Below are positions 14,774-56,140 of a DNA stretch of 64,000 bases, piece after piece. Both the position numbers and the translations under genes were made by a program. The stretch is from the human T2T-CHM13v2.0 reference genome, Homo sapiens. The notes below the pieces were generated by a model. The model had not been told where the DNA came from and searched no databases. It saw nothing but the letters and a program-made list of their open reading frames with translations. The DNA is taken from assembly GCF_009914755.1 (NCBI RefSeq), contig NC_060926.1, one strand, 5' to 3'. Numbering within the stretch: position 1 is the stretch's first letter; each line of letters opens with the position of its first letter.

Positions 14774-14776
<3 letters not shown>

Positions 14777-14815
<39 letters not shown>
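14777..14815. repeat. (TG)n microsatellite
   Basis: Uninterrupted TG run. Confidence 0.97.
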
Positions 14816-20391: not shown

Positions 20392-20439
<48 letters not shown>

Positions 20440-22676: not shown

Positions 22677-23389
<713 letters not shown>

Positions 23390-25207
23390 TTCCTGCCTTC
23401 TTATATTAATAAAAAAAATAAAACAAAATAGTGTTGAAGTTTTGGGGCGGTGAAAATTTTGGGGGGGTGGTATGGAGAGAGAATGGGCGATGTTTCTCAG
23501 GGCTGCTTCAAGCGGGATTAGGGGCGGCGTGGGAACCTAGAGTGGGAGAGATTAAGCTGAAGGGAGGTCTTGTGGTAAGGGGTGATATTGTGGGGTTGTT
23601 AGAAGAAACATTTGTCGTATAGAATGATTGGTGATGGCCTGGATACGGTTTTGTATGAATTGAAAAACTAAATGGAATAACAGAAGGAGAAAAACAGGTA
23701 TAAAAGGTCTAAGAATTGGGACGACTCAGGATATCTGATTGGAGAGTGCTTAAGGAGATTCAGCATAGTCCTGCCAGCAAAGATTATTTATTTACTTCAA
23801 GAGTTAAGAGTGGCAGTTTGGGGACAGCACCAGGAGATATCAGCTGTGATGGCTTGGAGAAACAGTGTAAACTGGCAGTGTAAACAAGAGCAGGGCATGT
23901 ATGAGTAGTTGAGAACGGTGAATAGGAGTATGACTAGACAGAAAATAGGAGTATGACAAGTTTTTTTTTGGGGAGGTAGGCACAGTCTAAGTTGGTCTGG
24001 TGTCTGGAATGAGACTGGGGCCTAATAAAAAGGAGCGTCTATACAGGAGCTTAAATGGGCTGTACCCTGTAGCATTCCGAGGACAGGCCTGAATTCTGAG
24101 AAGGGAAAGTGGTAAAAGTATTGTCCAGTCTTTTTTGGTGGCTGAGCTTGGTGAGGTGTGTTTTTAAAAGACCTTCAGTCCATTCTACTTTTCTTGAAGA
24201 CGGAGGACCGTAAGGGATATAAAGGTTTCACTGAATACTAAGAGCCTGAAAAACTGCTTGGCTGATTTGACTAATAAAGGCTCATCTGTTATCAGACTGT
24301 ATTGAGGTGGGAAGGCTAAACTGAGGAATTATGTCTGACAGAAGGGAAGAAATGACTGCGGTGGCCTTCTCAGACCCTGTAGGAAAGGCCTTTACTTATT
24401 CAGTGAAAGTGTCTATTTAGACTAAGAGGTATTTTAGTTTCCTGACTCAGGGCATGTTGAGTAAAGCTAATTTGCCAGTCCTGGGTGGGGCAAATCCTCG
24501 AGCTTGATGTGTAGGGAAGGGAGGGGGCCAGAATAATCCCTGAGGAGTAGTAGAATAGCAGATGGAACACTGAGAAGTTATTTCCTTGAGGATAGATTTC
24601 CACGATGGAAAGGAAATGAGAGGTTCTAAGAGGCGGGCTAGTGGCTTGTACTATAGTATAACCTGCCTTTGCTGGTGTGTGGCGATTAGGTCTGGTGGAA
24701 CCGCCATCAATAAATCAAGCATGATTAGGGTGAGGAACAGGAAAGAAGAAAATCTGGGGAAATGGGGTGAATGTCAGGTGGATCAGAGAGATACAGTCAT
24801 GGGGTCAGGTGTGGTATCAGGAATAATGTGGGAGGCCGGATTGAAGTCTGGGGCAGGAACAACGGTAATTGTGGGAGACTCAACGAAGAGTGAGTATAGC
24901 TGAAGGAGCCGGGAAGCAGAAAGTATATGCGTCAGGTATGAGGAAGAAAATAGATTTTGGAAGTTATGAGAACTGTAGAGAGTGAGTTGAGCATAGTTTG
25001 TGATTTTAAGGGCCTCTAAAAGTATTAAAGCAGTGGCAGCCGCTGCTTGCAGACATGAGGGCTAGGCTAAAACAGTAAGGTCAAGTTGTTTGGACAGAAA
25101 GGCTACAGGGTGTGGTCCTGGCTCTTGTGTAAGAATTCTGACCGCGCTAACCATGCCTAGGAAGGAAAGGAGTTGTTGTTTTGTAGAAGGTGCTGGGGTT
25201 TGAGAGA

Positions 25208-27418: not shown

Positions 27419-27511
27419 AGTGAAGGAAGCAAGCCTAGAGAAAAGAGAGAGTAGAGAAACGGAGGGAAGGGGTTCAGGAGTTCTTACCTTCCAGAAAAGT
27501 GGGAAAAGGGG

Positions 27512-27686
27512 TTGGGGTGCAGAGATAAGAGGTTGGGGCACAGAAATAAGGGATTGGGGCACAGAGATAAGAGGTTGGGGTGTGGAAATAAGGGATTGGG
27601 GTGCAGAGATAAGAGGTTGGGGTGTGGAAATAAGGGATTGGGGCACAGAGGTAAGAGGTTGGGGTGTGGAAATAAGGGATTGGGGG
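27512..27686. repeat. 21-bp tandem array (8 units, alternating as a 42-bp dimer) in the HERV-H leader
   Basis: ttggggtgcagagataagagg / ttggggtgtggaaataaggga units. Confidence 0.9.
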
Positions 27687-28277: not shown

Positions 28278-28730
28278 TTTCATGCGCGTCCGTGTGAAGA
28301 GACCACCAAACAGGCTTTGTGTGAGCAACATGGCTGTTTATTTCACCTGGGTGCAGGCGGGCTGAGTCCGAAAAGAGAGTCAGAGAAGGGAGATAAGGGT
28401 GGGGCCGTTTTATAGGATTTGGGTAGGTAAAGGAAAATTACAGTCAAAGGGGGTTTGTTCTCTGGCGGGCAGGAGTGGGGGTCGCAAGGTGCTCAGTGGG
28501 GGTGATTTTTGAGTCAGGATGAGCCAGGAAAAGGACTTTCACAAGGTAATGTCATCAGTTAAGGCAATGACCGGCCATTTACACTTCTTTTGTGGTGGAA
28601 TGTCATCAGTTAAGGCGGGGCAGGGCATATTCACTTCTTTTGTGATTCTTCAGTTACTTCAGGCCATCTGGGCATATACATGCAAGTCACAGGGGATGCG
28701 ATGGCTTGGCTTGGGCTCAGAGGCCTGACA
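28278..28730 (-). promoter_or_regulatory. 5' LTR7 (promoter/enhancer)
   Basis: TATAAAA (minus) at 28408-28414, two CACAAAAGAAGTG blocks, GC boxes. Confidence 0.93.
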
Positions 28731-28812
28731 TTGGTCAGGCTGGTCTCGAACTCCTGACCTCAGGTGATCCACCCACCTCAGCCTCCCAAAGTGCTGGGAT
28801 TACAGGCATGAG
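28731..28812 (-). mobile_element. AluS, 5' part; continuation of the split host Alu
   Basis: ttggtcaggctggtctcgaactcctgacctcaggtg...; Alu TSD gactcctc flanks the whole composite. Confidence 0.9.
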
Positions 28813-35430: not shown

Positions 35431-36547
35431 CTCTTAGTAGAATAAGCTCTTTCCTCTGTAAAATGTGTAGGAAAAAATGTAAACATTTGAAAAATACCAT
35501 CTTATACGGTGGTTTGTGGGTTAAATGAGATAATAAATAAAGAGTCCTTAGTATACAACCTGGCATATACTAAGTCAATAAATGTTAGTTATTATTGTGA
35601 ATACATATCTGACTTTTCATGTCCTTCAGAGCAATCTAAAATGTGAAATAGTATTGATAATTGATAGCTACCATTTGCTTATCATATATAACTCACAAAG
35701 CTCTTGGTTTTATTTCTTGAAACATGTGTTCCATTTTTCCCTGTTTCCCTCAAGTACAATTAGTCAAATCTTGCCATCCTAGCCCTTCCACCTGAATAAA
35801 CTAATTTTTTATTAAATCTATTATACCAGAATGCTACTTACTGCCCTTGGGTTTAGAGAAAGGGAGTATAGAGGAGGCTATCACAGTTCTGAATTTAAGT
35901 TTATAATTTTCTATTGCAGTCTAATCACCAATAGAGAATTTTCTTCTCCAGTTTTAGTTCCTGTGCAGATATCTGCCTGAAAGCTTCAGAAAATGTTGCA
36001 TGGCCTTTTCAGAGGCTACCTATGATTCTGGAGGCTGTTAGTGTTGCTGCTCTTGCAATAAGAGCTTGTCTTTGAGAACAAAAATACTTCTCTGATGCCG
36101 TTTTTGTTTAGTAAAGAAAACAAGAATTGCAGATATTAGAATGTCCTTAATACCACTGTGATGAAAAACTCAGCTTAATTGTGCAGGTAGGTTTGTGATA
36201 GGTAAAGAAGGTGGACACCTTGGAAAAACCTCATATTCCTCTTAGAAGGATTCTTGAAAACCCAACCCATACTGCTTGATGGGCCCAGTAATTTCGTGCT
36301 TGTTTCTGTTTTTGTAAGATCTTATGGATATCTGTGGACAAATGTTTTCCTGCTAGCATCATCAAGATACTAGTTGAGTTATTGATGACTTGTCTCTTTG
36401 AAGAGCTCTGTAAACTAGCTTCATTCATTCATCCAGACATCTATACATCCATTAATCTGTATATCTGTTCAACAAATATTTATTAAGCCTGCTAGTATGG
36501 ACTAGGAGCAAAAGATTTTAAGCAAGTAATTTCAATCTTTGCCCTTA

Positions 36548-37067
36548 TGATAGATTTGCAAAAATGTCTCCAATTATTTGCCTCTTCATCTTTGCTTCAT
36601 AACTTTATAGCGCTCTTCCATTTCTGACTCTGGTCTCAACCATAAGACTTGCTTTGGCCAATGACTTGTCAAAAAGCAAGTCATTGGTCAAGCAAAGGCT
36701 TTAAAGTATTTGCAAAATCAGGCTTGTTATCACTCTTACCTTCTTCATCAACATAAGACTATCTGTGCTAGTCTGTTGGGTGATTAGAGACACTTGGAAA
36801 AGAGATGAATTAGCACAGTCATTCCAGCCAAGAGTATCCTATATTGGCTGATAATCAGCTGACCTCTATACATCAATACATCTTCCTAAACATGTGATAT
36901 TATCCAACCGAGGCCAGAAGATTCATCCATTCAACCCAGCCAAGATCAGCAGAGCTGCCTAATCAACCATCCCAGAGGCATGGGTAAGGACTATTTATCA
37001 TTGTATGCCTTTGAAGTGTTGTGGTTGGTTGATAGTCAGCATTATTGTGGGAACAGTTAATGATACA
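36548..37067 (+). mobile_element. Old MLT1-type LTR
   Basis: gacttgctttggccaatg..., cagcattattgtgggaacagttaatgataca end. Confidence 0.6.
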
Positions 37068-39259
37068 GCTTCAGACTCTTGTTCTCATCTTTTCTCCTTG
37101 ACAGTTACACTCCCATTTTTCCTAAGACATGTTGTGCATCTGCCAACTTGATGCTCTCACACATCCCACAATGATTTCTTTGGAAGAATGCAATGGCTGT
37201 TTTGAGGTATTTATCTCTGGCGAGTTCATGTTTCTGAAAGACTTGGATCAAAACTGCAAAAACCTTGAGTGTCTGTGAAATGAAAGAGACGATTCATTCA
37301 CTTGTTTATCATTTATTGGGTGTTTGGGTACTGGCTCTGTATCAGAAACAATGCTGAGCCTTAGGGATGGCAGGGGCAAATGTAAATAAGTTTGTTTATG
37401 CAGATCTTGCATTCTACTGGAGGATGCTTCAAATAGGGAAACAAACCAAAAAAGCACAATATGAAAAGAACAAATACAGAGAAATCAGCACAGTTTTGCT
37501 TATTTTCCAGCCTAGAGAGAGATAACTTTTGATGGAAACATTTGAATTAAAGAAATGCTAAAATATTGTTAAATCATTATTCATTCAATAAGTACATGTT
37601 GAACACCTAGTATGGACAAAACAATGAACTAGATACTTGAAGGTTATACAAAAATAAGTTCTTAACAGGTTTATAGTCTAGAAAGGGTGACCAACATACA
37701 AAATTAATATAAAGCAGAAGGAATGAAGTGCTAAAACAGAGGTTTAAAGTATAATGTAAGCTGAGAGCAAAGAATGACTAATTCTCATTTGGAAAATCAT
37801 GGAATGCTGTAAGAACACAATGGAATTTAAGCTGGATTTGGAAAAGATTTGGAAAGAGAAAACTGAGAGGTGCTGCAGAGGAAGAGCACCTAGAAATAAT
37901 GAGAGCCTTGAGTCCCATGTTCAGTCCTTAGCAGTGCAACTCACTGGTGTGACTCTGGCCAGTTTTAATGTTCTCACCTCAAAAATGAGTAGAGTGATGC
38001 TAAATGATCTATATAGACCCTTCCAGCTTTAATACCCTGAGTCACCTAATTCAGTTGCCCATCATATGCTTAAGCACAATAAAGTGGCCAATAATTTCCA
38101 CTAAGGACAGGCCAGCGTGGGCTCAGTTCATGGGTGTCACTCTGGAAATGCTATTCTTGGAGTGACAGAATCATTAGTTCTTGTTAGGAGTCAGGAGAGT
38201 GGGCTATGTAGGGAGGTTCTATGACAGAGTAAAGAGAATGTCACACAGACCTGGCTTTGATGCCGATGCTGTCACCAGCAATGTTCTTCGACCTAAGTTA
38301 CTTAACCTCTTGCCTCAGTGTTCTCATCTACAAAGTGGGGATGATAATCCTGCTATATAAGGTGAGGAGCAAATAAGGTGGGACATGCAACGTTACCCAT
38401 TAATAATAGTTCACTGTGGATAACACATGAGTGAATAAGCGAGGTATTTGTATGAGGATGTCCCTCTCTATACACAAGAGATGTGTTCCTGAAAGATCAC
38501 ACGTGATTTGAATTGTCTAATACCTCTTTCATATTCGAAATGTGTTGTTTTAAAAGTCTTTTCTGTGACTCTTCTTTCTTAACAATTTATTGTTTATTAG
38601 ATTACATAAAGTTTGAATTTATAAAACAGGGTAATTATTTTCTTAAACAATGAATTATGAAACTAGACTGACCATGGAATGAACTGGTAGTTTTCTATGC
38701 AGTATTCACTTTCCCCTTCTTTCTTAGAAAGATGTTATTTGAGGTGCCAGAGTGCTCAGCTAAAAGACTACATTCCACAATATTTCTTGCATGTATGGGT
38801 GGCCAATGTGATGTAAACTGAAGGCAGTAAGTAAGGCATCAAGAAGAATCCCCTTACTCTATCCCTTTTTCTCATCTAGAATGAAGGTGAGACATTTGCA
38901 GCTTTGAGAATGGAAGTCACACGCTAAAGATGATGGAGCTGCAGCCCCCGATGACTTTGTGTGCTGCAGCACCAGCCCTGAACTGCCCATCTTTGGACTT
39001 TCCTTTCTGTGAGAGAGCAATAAGCTTCTCTTTTGTCTAAGCCTCTATTAGTTCTGTTCTCTGATACTAGCAGCTTATTGCAGTTTCTAACTGATGCCCC
39101 TAGCAATATTAGTGAGATCATCAAGTTCAATGGGCTGGCATTGTGTGTATCAGAATTGAAAATCAGTGTAATAACCATGCCTGAGCACAACCCCCTGGGA
39201 ATCTTTTGAACAAAATCCCACAAGATTAACTAGATAATATTAGGAATGCTGTTATCGAT

Positions 39260-39665
39260 AAAGTTTATTGAGCGTTCACTTAGATGCCTGGGAACAATGC
39301 AGGAAGGGGACCTAGTCTAGTCTTGAAAAACCACAGACGTCTTCATTAGGAAGGTGACGTGAATGCTGAAAACTGAAGCAAAGCAGCTAAAGGAAAGGTG
39401 GAAGGGAGTGGAGAGGGTGGGGGAAGGGTGTTATGGGCAAAAGAAAGAGTGTTTGCGAAGGCAGAGGCAAAGTGAACTTGTTCTATTTGAGGGAACTGTA
39501 AGTGCTTTATAAATAAACAGAACATCGTGTCAGAGGTCAGGACGGGGAGTAGATGGAAGTACTACTTCAGGCCAGAAAACTAGGCAGGGGAGCAGATCAT
39601 GCAGACTTTTAAAACCACACTTACACGTTCCAGTCTTTCCCAAAAGGAATGAGCTTCCATTTTCA

Positions 39666-39707
<42 letters not shown>

Positions 39708-40158
39708 TTATACTTTAAGTTCTAGGGTACATGTGCACAACGTGCAGGTTTGTTACATATGTATACATGTGCCATGTTGGTGTGCTGCACCCATTAACTC
39801 ATCATTTACATTAGGTGTATCTCCTAATGCTATCCCTCCCCCCTCCCCCCACCCCACAACAGGCCCCGGTGTGTGATATTCCCCATCCTGTGTCCATTTT
39901 CAAAAGATCACTGGAATGGCAAGGCAGAGAAAAAACGGGGTGGATGGGAGTTTGTTGTTTCAGTGAACCAGGTGCAAGATAATGGTGACTACTGTAGCAT
40001 GCGATATTGGAAATATAAGAGGTAGACAAATTCAGAAGATAATACAAGTTGGAACGAATACGACTTGATAATTGATTGGCTTAGTGGTGAGGAAGATGCC
40101 CAGATTCTTGGCTTAGGCCAGAAGACAGGAGAGGGAGTGGCATTAATACTTGAATATG
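39260..40158. mobile_element. L2 fragment
   Basis: tttattgagc..., ggaaggtgac..gctga.., gagggaactgta.., caaaagatcact.. motifs typical of degraded L2. Confidence 0.6.
39665..39892 (-). mobile_element. 5'-truncated L1PA 3' end with (TA)n/poly(T) tail
   Basis: ttatactttaagttctagggtacatgtgcacaacgtgcagg...; TSD tccattttc at 39656-39664 and 39893-39901. Confidence 0.92.
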
Positions 40159-42193
40159 TATCAATGCACATTTGAAAATCTCATAGATTGTATATTTGGT
40201 GTTTCTTATAAGTATCCTAAATGTCTGTTTCCTGTTTAAAAATTAGCTTGATAGCAATTGGCTTAGTGAAAATCCAGTTTCATTGGTAAGAAGGGCAAGC
40301 CCTCTGGCTGTTCTCTGACTGGTTGGTATCTATTTCCTGCAGTATAATAAAGGGTACCCCTTGCCACAGGAAGCTATTACCAGATCTTATTTATTTCCTG
40401 ATTAAAAAGGAGTAAATCATAGCTGGACATCTGTGGAAAATGAGTTTTTAGTACAGCTAAGGTAGTTAATGTCTAAATGGGAGTTTCTCCTGTGATGATA
40501 AATGTCTACTCTGTTGAAATAGTTTCCATAAAACTCAGTTGGTACGAGGGTAGAGATATTGTGCAACTGTCAATGAGGCATTAAAGGGATGCTTGTTTAT
40601 TGGGTTTACAATCAACAACAAATCCTAACTCTTATAAAAAATGAAAATGTTTTGGTGTACCAGTTTAGCAATATAGGAGCTTCTTTTTCAGAAGAAAACT
40701 ATATTCTAATATGAATTTAGTTTAACATTCAGTGGATAATAGAAAAAATGTGGAAGACGTCACTAGGAAAAATAGCGAACAATTCCCATGTGTGGGAGCA
40801 CAGTGATAATAGTTCTTAGAACAAATGGTAGCGTATTGCTGTCAAGTTAGTGTACACAAGGGGTGGGCTTTTAAAAGTCATTGTTCTGTATAAGCTTTGC
40901 CTGTAAAATCCCTCACTGCTAGATTGTTGTCTGTATTGATGGACTGATGGAATGTAGCTGCAAGAGGTGAAGTGTACCTTTACCTTCAATTCCTGCTTCT
41001 TTTTCTCCCTTAAATACCTTGATGAAAAATGCTGAACTGCTTCAATGACATTGGATGTAATTAGAAACAACAAATCCATTGTGCTCTGTGTATGTCACGC
41101 TACTGCCGTCCTTGTCGCAGTTGCTTTCCGTAGACTCTGGTTGGGTAGAGAGGGTAAATAGGAAAGCAAGGAAGATGTGACCATTTCCAGAGGGTTGATG
41201 ATTTTCTCTAGGTTATGAAGATCACTGGGTTCCACTAGGATATGTGGTTATCTTCAGCTGGTTGTGGTAGAAACCAGCAGGGCTTCCTCTTTTGGAGACA
41301 GTTATCTAGAACCAGTTTCTATTAGTCAAGATCAGACTAGGCTGCTTTAACAAAGACCCAAACATACCGTGGCACACATAAGCTAGACATTTACTTTTCT
41401 TTCACATAACAGTCCAGAGGTGGGGATAAGCAGAGGTCCAGGGTGGGAAGAGGATTCTGCTCCACTGGCCACCTTGGGTTTTGAGTTTCTTTGAACTTGT
41501 TGCTTTCCCTTCCCAGACTATTGTCCTCAGCTGCAGGGTCAAAGTCAAGTCATAAGCATCATATCCTTTTTCCAACACAAGAGAAGAGGGAAAGAGAAAA
41601 TTAAGGGCAACCAGCTTTCTTTTAATGATATAACCCAGAAGCTGCTCGTCCCATTGGCCTACCTGCAAGGGATCCTGGACAATAAAGTCTCTAGCTCAAT
41701 GGCTGTGTCTCCAACTAAAACTGAAAGTTTTCTAGTACTAAAAGAAAGTTAAGGAAAATGATATTGGGAGGCATATAGCAGTCTCTGCTGCACAGTCCTT
41801 TTAATTTGCTTTAGTGACTGCTCTCTTTCTCAAATTTCATTTCTTGGGTGTTTGGGAAGGTGTCCCTGTATCTTATTGATGATGCCCAGATGGTGACTAT
41901 TTATTACTAAGGAAGAAACCATTGGAAACTATATATTTCAAATGTCATGTTTAAACTGACATAGTTTGAATATTTCATACATTTAAGTTATTCATACATG
42001 AATACACTTCACTCTTAATGTAGCAGACTCAACATGGTGGTAATTACATTGTCTATCATGCTTACCTTCCTACTTGCATATTCAAGTATTAATGCCACTC
42101 CTTCTCCTGTCTTCTGGCCTAAGCCAAGAATCTGGGCATCTTCCTCACCACTAAGCCAATCAATTATCAAGTCGTATCGGTTCCAACTTGTAT
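40042..42193. repeat. 117-bp inverted duplication pair (40042-40158 and 42077-42193)
   Basis: The two copies are reverse complements with 3 mismatches. Confidence 0.95.
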
Positions 42194-42632
42194 GATGGGG
42201 ATTTTCTTGTGTTGTTCCACAGCTCTGTCCTTGGAACCTGGCAATTAAGATTTGCTACCAAGAAATAAATAATGATGACACTTGAAATGAAATGGGAGGC
42301 TTTGTATGTTTAACACTGAAGGAAAATATATTGAGTACATTTGTATTTCAAAATATTATAGAAAGTTTTGTTTCTATGAAGTCCAATGCATCTCAGAAGA
42401 TTCTGAGTTTTGTTTTCTTCTGCAATATTAAAATTATCTTTCCTAGGACTACCATGGTGCTTTTGGATGGGTTGGGGCTGGTGAATTGAAGGGGCCTAGT
42501 CTTTGGATGTTTAGGAGACACCTAGGATTTACTATCTGAGAGCCCAAAGGAGACATGTGGGGTCATTCAGGACTCTTCACACTTTGAGCACAGCAGTAAC
42601 AACATAAATATAAATAGTATAAATATAAAGAT

Positions 42633-42941
<309 letters not shown>

Positions 42942-45182
42942 TAACAATATTTTATTTCACTTATCTGTCTTGTAGTATGGTTGCCTATTTTTTTTTTTTT
43001 TTTTTTTTTGTAGTATGGTTACCTACTTTTCTCTCCAATAAACCTTGAACTCCTTGAGGCGAAGAACTCTGTCTTTTCCCCTTTGTGTTTCCAGGGCCTA
43101 TGACACACTGGCACAAAGTAGAGGCTGTGTGAGCTGGATGGGAATGGATGGGAAAGAGAAGTGGGACAGTATCTCTAAACAGGAGTTGGGAAACTTCCTT
43201 CAGTGTATGAGAACAAAAGGAGGAAAAGTTGGGCATGGATATACAAAGTCCAGGACGCCCCTGACTGATGGCTTCTGCGTACTCTGAGAGGGAGGAGGAG
43301 CTATCTTCAGTGGGTAGTGAGAGGGCGTGGGGAGTCCAATACTTTTGGGGAGCAGAAAACTTCAAAATAGTTACTGTGGGAAATAGGAGAGACAGTTGAT
43401 GGGGAAATATAAGGAGTTGGCTTGCAATACTTTTTCATCTTTTTCACTTTCTGTCCAATCTTCTATTTATTAACCTCTTTTCCCTTTTGGTTTCTTCCTT
43501 TCTCTGTTTAAAGATGCTAACATGCTTGCAGATTAAATGTACAAAAAACTTCCTCAAGCCCAAATCCCTCTCCAGAAATTGACTTCTCCCTCGCCCCTAT
43601 AAAGACAAACTCCTAAGAAGAGTTGCTGTCTTCACTTCTTGACTTTTTCCTGTCCCTTTGGACCTCACTCATTGACCGCCTTCTATTCCCTTCATTGAAA
43701 TTATTTTCAAAAAGTCCTCACGATATATCCCTCTGGCTAAACCCAGTGCAAACTTGAGGTCCTTTACTCACTTGATTTCAGAGCAGCTTTTGACTGCGCG
43801 TTCATTCGTGAAATATTCTGTTTTCTTTGCTTCCAAATTATTCCCTTATCTCTTATCTTCCACCTGATCTTAAGTGCTGGTGTCCCTCAAGGTTTTGTCC
43901 TGGGCCTTCTTTCTTCCATGTTTTCAGTTATATTGTTACACTGATGACTATAGAATCCACATCTCTAGCTCATTTATCTCTCCTTAGCTGCAGACTCATT
44001 TCCAGATGCTTCCTGGACCTCCACACCTGCATGTCCTAAACTCTTCCTGTCCAGAACTCAACTCATCACCATTCATTTGACACCTGCTTATTCCCCCACG
44101 TTCCCTAGTTTAGTGAATGGCGTCTGGCAGACAAGCTAGAAATGAGGACATCATCCCTACCTGCAAGTTCCCCATCACCATGATTTTCCCTTTTAAAACT
44201 TCTTCTCAAAACACTGCAGCACATTAATGCTGCCCTAGGCTAGCCACCAAAGTCTATTGTCTACATTACTTCAACAGATTCCGACTGGTTTCCCTATTTT
44301 CAGTTCATCTTCTCTCCCAGCCCAGATCTTTGCATTGCAGCCAGAATGACCTTTCTAAATGCAAATTTTATCATTTTCTTTCCTGCTTAAATTTTTAAAA
44401 AGATGTCCCCTTTTCCTTCTCCAGGGAGTTTAAACTTTTACCTGGCATAGAGTTGTTCATAATCTGACCATTGATTATCTCTCCTGCCTTATCTATAACC
44501 CCTTTCCCCACCACCACCGCAGCAATCTAGGCCACACCCAAATTGATCTCCTTTCAGTTTCTTGAATATACCATTGTCTCTCATCTCAACATGACACTTC
44601 TGTCTGGAAATCTCTCTCTTCCCTCCTTCTTTGCCTGGCTAACATTCGTTAATTCATTTAACAATTTTTTGTTAATGTATTGTAGTATTAGGGAGGTATT
44701 ATCCTAAACACTAAGGAGATAATAGTGAATAAAATTGAAAAGTCCCTGTCTACCAGTATCAGGACTGTGGATGTACCAATCGGCTTTTGTGTCATCTGTC
44801 ATGGCAAACATCCAACTAGGGCTCATTTTGTGGATTCTTCAGAGGTCCCCAAGGGAAACTTTTCACTATACCCTTCCCTAGGGGGAGATACTGGGTGGCT
44901 CGCCAATTTAAAGGGAGAGCTGAATGACAAAACCTTGGAGAAACAATACCCAAGAAAGCTCTAGGATCTTAAGGTCAGGAACCCTTGGATTGACTCCACC
45001 TGGTGCTAACCTTGAAATGGCTCAGTTCCTGCTAGCTTCCTAAAATTAAGATATGCTGGAGGGGAATTTCTATGTGTTTCCTTGATTAAGATTCAGATTT
45101 CTTTAAGGGTACAAAGTTTCAGTTATGCAAGATGATTAAGTTCTAGAGGTCCATGGTAGAGTATAGTGCCTATAACTAATAA

Positions 45183-45534
<352 letters not shown>

Positions 45535-46282
45535 GAGGGTGGATCTTTAAAGTGTTCTTATCTACACAAAAAATTTCAGACTCCCAGGAGAGAGAATCAG
45601 GTTGACTTAAGTAGGTTCAAATATCTACACCTATAGGTTGGATAATGGGTCTGGAAACTAGAGCTATTGTAACTACCATTACAGTGGTCTAGATAGGAGA
45701 TGATGGTAATTTGGATTATAGTTGCAGTGGAGACAGAGAAAAGTGGATGAATATGTTAATGGGCAGAAGCCATCGGGATTTATAGAATAAAGTGATTGTG
45801 AAGATAGAAGGAAAAAGGAAAGAGAATCATGAATGATGCCTAGATTTGGGGCTCAAATAACTGGTGGAAGGTGGAGCCATTTACTGAGATTGGAAGAATA
45901 TGTAAGGAGGGAGATTTATGTTAGTGGGGTTGGGGGAAAGACAGGAGAGCATGAGTCTATTTTGATCATAGTACGTTTGAGATGCGCAATCAGCCTTTGG
46001 ATATGAATCTGAAGCTCAGTGCAGCAGTGAGGTCTAAAGATGTAAATACAGGAATCTTCAGCATAGAGATGCTAAAGTCATGAGCCTAGATGATATGACA
46101 TATGGACAGATGGAAGGTAGAGAAGAGACAAAGCCCTGGGACTGAGCCCTGGGACACAGCTATACTTAGAGATTATAATAGAGGAGGAGGAGTCTGCAAA
46201 GAGGCTGAGAAGGGAGGCCAGCAAAGTAAATGAAAAAAAAAAAAAAGGAATTTCCCACCATTGTCAAAGAAGCCAGATCGTC

Positions 46283-54878: not shown

Positions 54879-56140
54879 CTTTTTTTTTCTTTTGTTTTTT
54901 GAATTTTTATTTTAGTTTCAGGGGTACATGTGCAGGTGTGTTATTTAGGTAAACACGTGTCATGGGGGTTTGTTGTACCGATTATTTCATTACTCAGGTA
55001 CTAAGCCTAGTACCCAAGAGTTATTTTTTCTGATTCTCTCCCTCCATCTACACTCCACCCTCAAGTAATCTTCAGTGTCTGTTGTTCCCTTCTTTGTGTC
55101 CATGTGTTCTCATCATTTAGCTCCCACTTATAAGTGAGAACATGTGGTATTTGGTTTTCTGTTTCTGTGCTACTTCGCTTAGGATGATGGCCTCCTGTTC
55201 CATCCATGTTCCTGCAGAGGACATGATCTCATTCTTTTTTAGGGCTGCATAGTATTCCATGGTGTATATGTACCACATTTTGTTTATCCAGCCTACTATT
55301 GGTGGGCATTTAGGTTGATTCCATGTGTTTGCTATTGTGAGTAGTGCTGCAATGAACATATGCGTGCATGTATCTACGGTAGAATGATTTCTATTCCTTT
55401 GGGTATATAATGGTAGTTCCATTTTCAGCTCTTTGAGAAATTACCACACTGCTTTCCACAATGGCTGTGGAAAGTGATTTACCCTCCCACCAACAGTGCA
55501 TAAACATTCCCTTTTCTCTGCAACCTTGCCAGCATCTCTTATTCTGTTATTTTTTGACTTTGTAATAATAGCCATGCTTTATGGTGTGAGATGGTATCTC
55601 ATGTTGGTTTTGATTTGCATTTCTCTAATGGTCAATGATGTTGAGCCTTTTCTTCGTATGCTTGTCGTCTGCATATATGTCTTTTGAAAAATGTCTGTTC
55701 GTGTCTTTGCCCACTTTTTAATAGGGCTGTTTATTTTTTTTCTTGTAGATTTTGTTTAAGTTCCTTATAAATGCTGGATATTAGACTGTTGTCTGATGCA
55801 TAATTTGCGAATATTTTCTCCCATTTTGTAGGTTATCTGTTTACTCCCTTGATAGTTTCTTTTGCTGTGCAGAAGCTCTTAAGTTTAAGATCCCATTTGT
55901 CAATTTTTGCTTTTGTTGTGATTGCTTTTGACATCTTCATCATGAAATCTTTGCCCATGCCTGTCCTGAATGGTATTGCCTAGGTTGTCTTCCGGGGTTT
56001 TTGTAGTTTTGCATTTTACATTTAAGTCTTAATCCATCTTGAGTTAGTTTTTGTATATGGTGTAAGGAAGGGGTCCAGTTTCAATCTTCTGCATATGGCT
56101 AGCCAGTTATCCCAGCACAATTTAATGAATAGGGAATCCA
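54879..56140 (-). mobile_element. L1PA/PB-type 3' fragment (~1.25 kb)
   Basis: ORF2 C-terminal-like peptide (TCTHMFIAALLTIANTWNQPKCP..WINKMWYIYTMEYY); TSD ggaaggacttt. Confidence 0.9.

What the first reader, a model, noticed from the sequence alone, without database searches (positions are those of the whole stretch)
40042..42193. 117-bp inverted duplication flanking 1.9 kb: probable inversion scar
40042-40158 and 42077-42193 are reverse complements with only 3 mismatches, yet they derive from a very old L2 fragment. They are therefore a recent local duplication, not independent insertions. The L2 appears to stop at 40158. Inverted duplications at breakpoints are the signature of staggered-break or template-switch inversions, so 40159-42076 may be flipped relative to the ancestor. 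The repeats could also mediate recurrent or polymorphic inversion (inference).
Basis: partly seen in the sequence, partly recalled or inferred. Interest (0 to 1): 0.7.

Follow-up and report, generated by a model that had tools for sequence, protein, structure and literature searches.

The report
Short inverted copy-paste repair scar
About 110 bases of an old repeat are duplicated backwards 1.9 kb away in human DNA, most likely as an ordinary DNA-repair scar rather than the edge of a flipped segment.

Summary
The inverted pair is real: 40042-40158 and 42077-42193 agree at 114 of 117 bases, and only these two copies were found in the genome. The left arm is the original, part of an old L2-type repeat; the right arm is the copy. 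The inversion reading is not supported. No old repeat rejoins beyond chance when the inner segment is flipped, though the left junction leans weakly that way. The empty site matches the start of the left arm at 14 of 16 (3 of these assumed), the best match in 64 kb (chance about 0.3%, found after looking). This fits a microhomology-primed templated insertion, the 'inverted duplication' class that made up 54% of 229 checked 'inversions' in Sudmant 2015. No outgroup could be read, so inversion keeps about 17%. The locus is not in the inversion table checked. Ordinary; low interest.

The parts
39418..40158 (-). Old L2-type repeat fragment that holds the donor arm (family name and sense strand recalled)
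   Evidence: Profile matches 39418-39612, 39894-39990 and 39955-40129, colinear and crossing 40042 without a break
39656..39902 (.). Younger insertion inside the L2 (L1 3' fragment by recall) between 10-base direct repeats at 39656-39665 and 39893-39902
   Evidence: direct repeat; 71% match to 54884-54990
40042..40158 (+). Left arm: donor (original) copy
   Evidence: continuous with the L2 on its left
40039..40054 (+). Donor-side stretch that matches the reconstructed empty site at 14 of 16; likely priming site
   Evidence: only place in the arm-less 64 kb window with 2 or fewer mismatches to it
40159..42076 (.). Inner 1918-base segment; likely in ancestral orientation (inferred)
   Evidence: Flip tests not beyond chance; composition skew uninformative
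42067..42076 (+). Target-side remnant: 9 of 10 identical to 42181-42190; its last 5 bases (42072-42076) recur exactly at 42186-42190
   Evidence: chance estimates
42077..42190 (-).
   Evidence: L2 profile matches only 42190-42098 here
42198..42243 (+). Weak match to the 3' end of the same repeat family, beside the insertion
   Evidence: 3.6 bits, E 0.14; too weak to orient the inner segment

Best explanation
This is likely a templated insertion: one copy of about 110 bases pasted backwards 1.9 kb from its source during DNA repair or a replication stall, with the DNA between likely never flipped. Shown: the right arm is the copy, it is bracketed by an exact 5-base direct repeat inside a 9-of-10 repeat, and it has no poly-A tail. 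Inferred steps: a free 3' end at about 42072-42076, running leftward on the minus strand, annealed to the similar stretch at 40039-40054 on the other strand (14 of 16, an 8-base perfect run if 42191-42193 belonged to the target); a polymerase copied 40050-40158; the strand let go and rejoined its own site five bases back. MMBIR/FoSTeS or polymerase-theta end joining would both do this and cannot be told apart here. It is likely functionless and likely fixed; 3 differences in 117 give 13 Myr (95% range 2.6-37) at an assumed 1e-9 per site per year, less if the two adjacent mismatches arose during copying.
For:: of the four arm flanks only the inner flank of the right arm matches the opposite arm end (9 of 10; the others 5, 5 and 4 of 10); 66 and 100 of 127,980 window 10-mers reach 9 of 10 at the 11 offsets allowed, about 0.26% over four flanks; with L2 composition the rate is 1 of 1452 and 6 of 15,416, so the family has no such inner repeat; the inversion model's switch from inner segment to arm has 0 matching bases; donor and copy are told apart. 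Prior: 54% of 229 verified 'inversion' sites were inverted duplications, nearly all under 1 kb and within 5 kb of the other copy, put down to replication errors (PMC4617611, passages); 21 opposite-strand non-tandem duplications among 166 rearrangements in one genome (PMC5829575 section 18); germline templated insertions mostly carry microhomology (PMC8421209).
Against: The L2 match fades close to the arm's end, and the left junction scores better flipped than as it stands (+5.5 against -2.4 bits; +2.0 against -3.9); the present continuation was beaten by 483 of 500 random ones. The empty site does not restore a longer L2 3' end (182 of 400 random continuations as good; 145 and 268 of 300). The return junction has 0 exact matching bases. 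The 9-of-10 match was noticed by eye first, so its true chance is nearer 1% (my estimate). Three of the 14 matching bases (42191-42193) could have come from the donor. No empty allele was seen in any genome.
Confidence: 0.76

Rival explanations
1. Staggered-break or template-switch inversion: the ancestor read left arm, reversed inner segment, right flank; the event flipped 40159-42076 and duplicated the arm.
For: One-sided inverted duplication is the expected scar (model recalled; Ranz et al. PMC1885836 seen in a search listing only). The 29-copy profile ran 11 bases past the junction when flipped, 34.9 against 33.7 bits. Anchored score +5.5 bits; 7 of 200 shuffles reached it.
Against: The 76-copy profile ends at 40129 in both arrangements. 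34 of 400 and 146 of 500 random continuations score as well; the gain lasts about 12-21 bases. The second junction is no better than random when flipped (329 of 500, 251 of 300, 367 of 400); joint chance 0.42. It leaves the 9-of-10 junction repeat unexplained.
Confidence: 0.17
2. Gene conversion between two older, oppositely oriented L2 copies made 117 bases nearly identical.
For: Read on its own strand the right arm is followed by 12-21 weakly L2-like bases, and a weak L2 3' end lies beside it.
Against: Similarity between the arms drops to background at both edges; the profile does not extend right of 42190; copies about 70% alike are poor conversion partners (own knowledge); the 5-base direct repeat is unexplained.
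Confidence: 0.04
3. The arms now mediate recurrent or polymorphic flipping, or form a functional RNA hairpin in a long CPO transcript.
For: The arms could pair as RNA (-220 kcal/mol duplex); the annotation puts the site inside the CPO span.
Against: Arms 117 bases, longest perfect run 75; 72% of recurrent inversions had flanks of 10 kb or more (bioRxiv 2021.12.20.472354, passages); no row here in Porubsky 2023 Table S1 although it lists calls of 1.3-1.9 kb; no RefSeq element here; no Rfam match at gathering score. The 5-base repeat still sits by the right arm, as an unflipped allele would have it.
Confidence: 0.03

Closest known systems
'Inverted Dup' class of Sudmant et al. 2015 (PMC4617611)
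   Same: Stretch under 1 kb, inverted, within 5 kb of the other copy, no sign of retrotransposition
   Different: Those were polymorphic with an empty allele seen; this one has 3 differences and is likely old and fixed; no empty allele seen here
Microhomology-mediated templated insertions, MMB-TI (Osia et al. 2021, PMC8421209)
   Same: Nearby inverted template, imperfect microhomology at the priming junction, return to the original site
   Different: Template 1.9 kb away against within 100 bp in the yeast events; return junction has no exact match
Non-tandem duplication, opposite strand (Frith and Khan 2018, PMC5829575)
   Same: Same dot-plot pattern
   Different: There ancestry was fixed with ape alignments; here it is inferred from junctions
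Staggered-break inversions of Drosophila (Ranz et al. 2007, PMC1885836; listing only, model recalled)
   Same: Inverted duplication at two nearby sites
   Different: Reversal of the inner segment is not shown here
Templated sequence insertion polymorphisms (Onozawa and Aplan 2016, PMC5110952)
   Same: 5-base duplication of target bases as in class 1; microhomology as in class 2
   Different: No poly-A, no TTTT/A site; donor is local, not distant

Membership tests
Local inverted duplication (Sudmant 'Inverted Dup') | Duplicated stretch under 1 kb, inverted, within 5 kb | tested here: met
   117 bases, 1918 apart
Local inverted duplication (Sudmant 'Inverted Dup') | Not a retrotransposition product | tested here: met
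   No poly-A and no TTTT/A at either end of the copy
Local inverted duplication (Sudmant 'Inverted Dup') | Empty allele with the inner segment in the same orientation | not testable with these tools
   No other primate or human haplotype is held (no relatives)
Microhomology-mediated templated insertion | Microhomology at the priming junction | tested here: met
   9 of 10 independent, 14 of 16 with the assumed boundary
Microhomology-mediated templated insertion | Microhomology at the return junction | tested here: inconclusive
   0 exact, 2 after one mismatch
Staggered-break inversion | Inverted duplication at the breakpoints | tested here: met
Staggered-break inversion | Split elements rejoin when the inner segment is reversed | tested here: inconclusive
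   Left junction weakly better flipped but within the null; right junction no gain
Staggered-break inversion | Opposite orientation in an outgroup | not testable with these tools
   No outgroup genome; ape tables too large to read
NAHR-mediated recurrent inversion | [quoted passage not shown] | tested here: not met
   117 bases; threshold
NAHR-mediated recurrent inversion | Inverted allele seen among humans | tested here: not met
   0 of 25 chr2 rows of Porubsky 2023 Table S1 lie between 184.2 and 222.6 Mb; one call set only
Class 1 TSIP (L1-mediated) | Poly-A tract and TTTT/A target | tested here: not met
   Junction letters; definition

The most novel reading that the evidence does not exclude
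An unlisted 1.9 kb inversion with a one-sided 117-base staggered duplication, fixed on the ape or human line inside the CPO locus: a Drosophila-style staggered-break inversion in a primate germ line, usable as a phylogenetic marker.
Probability: 0.17. Interest if true: 0.3.

Novelty: new member of a known kind. Interest (0 to 1): 0.12.

Why it matters
Little. It is a clean example of a common mutation class with a readable priming site, and a caution that inverted duplications in a single genome usually mark an insertion, not an inversion. If the inner segment did flip, it would add one small fixed primate inversion of an uncommon type, with no known gene effect.

Tried and rejected
Repeat-continuity tests of both junctions in five arrangements: none beyond random continuations. 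By eye I first thought the flipped right junction, then the empty site, restored an L2 3' end; neither held. Composition skew: no usable signal. Tandem repeats in 36000-46000: only a T run. Rfam 37000-45000: 8 matches, none at gathering score; 6 lie at 42637-42938 (Alu by recall). Independent insertions rejected. L1-mediated insertion rejected (no poly-A). Literature: searches; FASTKD2 + CPO + inversion gave 1 paper, on pseudogenes (listing only). Coordinate searches gave nothing in supplements of PMC10150506, PMC4617611 (one file, may lack the inversion table; hg19 position from a recalled offset) and PMC12350169 (file cut, hg38 position from a recalled offset). Tables of PMC12058530 could not be read and may bear on ape orientation.

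Full report
Observation. The two arms, 40042-40158 and 42077-42193, are reverse complements with three mismatches, at 40056, 40057 and 40133; similarity falls to background at both edges. It is the most identical of the 25 longest inverted pairs listed, of 379 found in the window. A whole-genome search with 39900-40300 returned 2 places, the two arms.

Donor and copy. No repeat library was on hand, so I collected relatives from the genome by motif: 47 matches (all 46 other than the window's own fetched), 8 and 38 (30 cut), each with 0 control matches. After dropping 5 loci from the window itself and 6 duplicates, 76 copies made the profile; 51 of them made a second profile toward the 3' end; 20 of 75 further matches seeded a 3'-end profile. 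The name L2 is recalled. The profile runs unbroken from 39955 to 40129 across the left arm's start, with colinear pieces back to 39418, while at the right it covers only 42190-42098. So the left arm is the original.

Is the inner segment flipped? An inversion predicts that the L2 continues from 40158 into the reverse of 42076, and that the reverse of 40159 joins the right flank. First junction: a 29-copy profile ran 11 bases past it when flipped (34.9 against 33.7 bits); the 76-copy profile ended at 40129 either way. Anchored scores were +5.5 flipped against -2.4 as is, with 34 and 299 of 400 random continuations as good, and 7 of 200 shuffles reaching the flipped score; with a second anchor +2.0 against -3.9, 146 and 483 of 500. 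This leans toward the flip but is within chance and lasts under about 20 bases. Second junction: flipped 329 of 500, 251 of 300, 367 of 400; arm simply removed 145 and 268 of 300, 182 of 400. No arrangement wins. Composition skew gave nothing.

The junction signature. The 10 bases just inside the right arm (42067-42076) match 42181-42190 at 9 of 10, and 42072-42076 recurs exactly at 42186-42190. Joining 42076 to 42191 gives an empty site that matches 40039-40054 at 14 of 16 on the other strand; it is the only place in the arm-less window with two or fewer mismatches. The other three flanks reach 5, 5 and 4 of 10. Chance is about 0.26% over four flanks and 11 offsets, and 1 of 1452 or 6 of 15,416 per flank among L2 10-mers; a lenient any-offset test found 9 of 10 in 2 of 42 copies. 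I saw the match before testing it, so about 1% is fairer, and three of the 14 bases rest on the chosen boundary. An insertion uses this match: it is where a free end would anneal, and the two diagnostic bases in the right copy switch from target type (42194) to donor type (42185) across it. An inversion does not use it: its inner switch has 0 matching bases. The return junction of the insertion model also has 0 exact matches, which counts against neatness.

Mechanism. Inferred: a 3' end at the target annealed 1.9 kb away on the opposite strand, copied 109 bases, and rejoined five bases back. Two of the three differences lie 6-7 bases past the priming site and may date from the event (inference). 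Age 13 Myr (2.6-37) for 3 differences, 4 Myr (0.1-24) for 1, at an assumed 1e-9 per site per year.

Comparison. Sudmant 2015 (PMC4617611, passages): 54% of 229 verified inversion sites were inverted duplications, nearly all under 1 kb and within 5 kb. Frith and Khan (PMC5829575, passages and section 18): 21 opposite-strand non-tandem duplications among 166 rearrangements. Osia 2021 (PMC8421209, passages and part 1 of section 10): 138 of 155 and 135 of 148 germline junctions had microhomology. Onozawa and Aplan (PMC5110952, passages): class definitions; this site fits neither class fully. Porubsky preprint (10.1101/2021.12.20.472354, passages): NAHR flanks counted from 200 bases, recurrent inversions mostly 10 kb or more. 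Porubsky 2023 (PMC10150506, supplement Table S1, 25 chr2 rows seen): none between 184.2 and 222.6 Mb. The locus was not found in the searches or the supplement searches; the last two used recalled coordinate offsets and incomplete files, and the ape tables could not be read.

Verdict. Real feature, likely a templated inverted insertion (0.76), inversion 0.17. A new member of a known, common kind, with no sign of function. One outgroup alignment would settle it.

Noticed in passing
window 22938-23391 and 28278-28732: 456-base direct repeats, 97.6% identical, 5.3 kb apart, each under a RefSeq enhancer; likely the two LTRs of a provirus (family not tested).
   Followed up: no
window 14776-14815 and 20392-20431: A perfect 40-base direct repeat 5.6 kb apart inside the listed CPO alternative exon; possibly another local duplication.
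   Followed up: no
window 39656-39902: Young insertion (L1 3' fragment by recall) with a 10-base target duplication splitting the donor L2; a dating landmark for outgroup work.
   Followed up: partly
window 44002-44491: Another L2-type copy opposite in orientation to the donor, covering the same part of the family but only as diverged as ordinary copies.
   Followed up: partly
window 27499-27685: Tandem duplication of about 83 bases, 92% identical, inside the LTR-bounded element.
   Followed up: no
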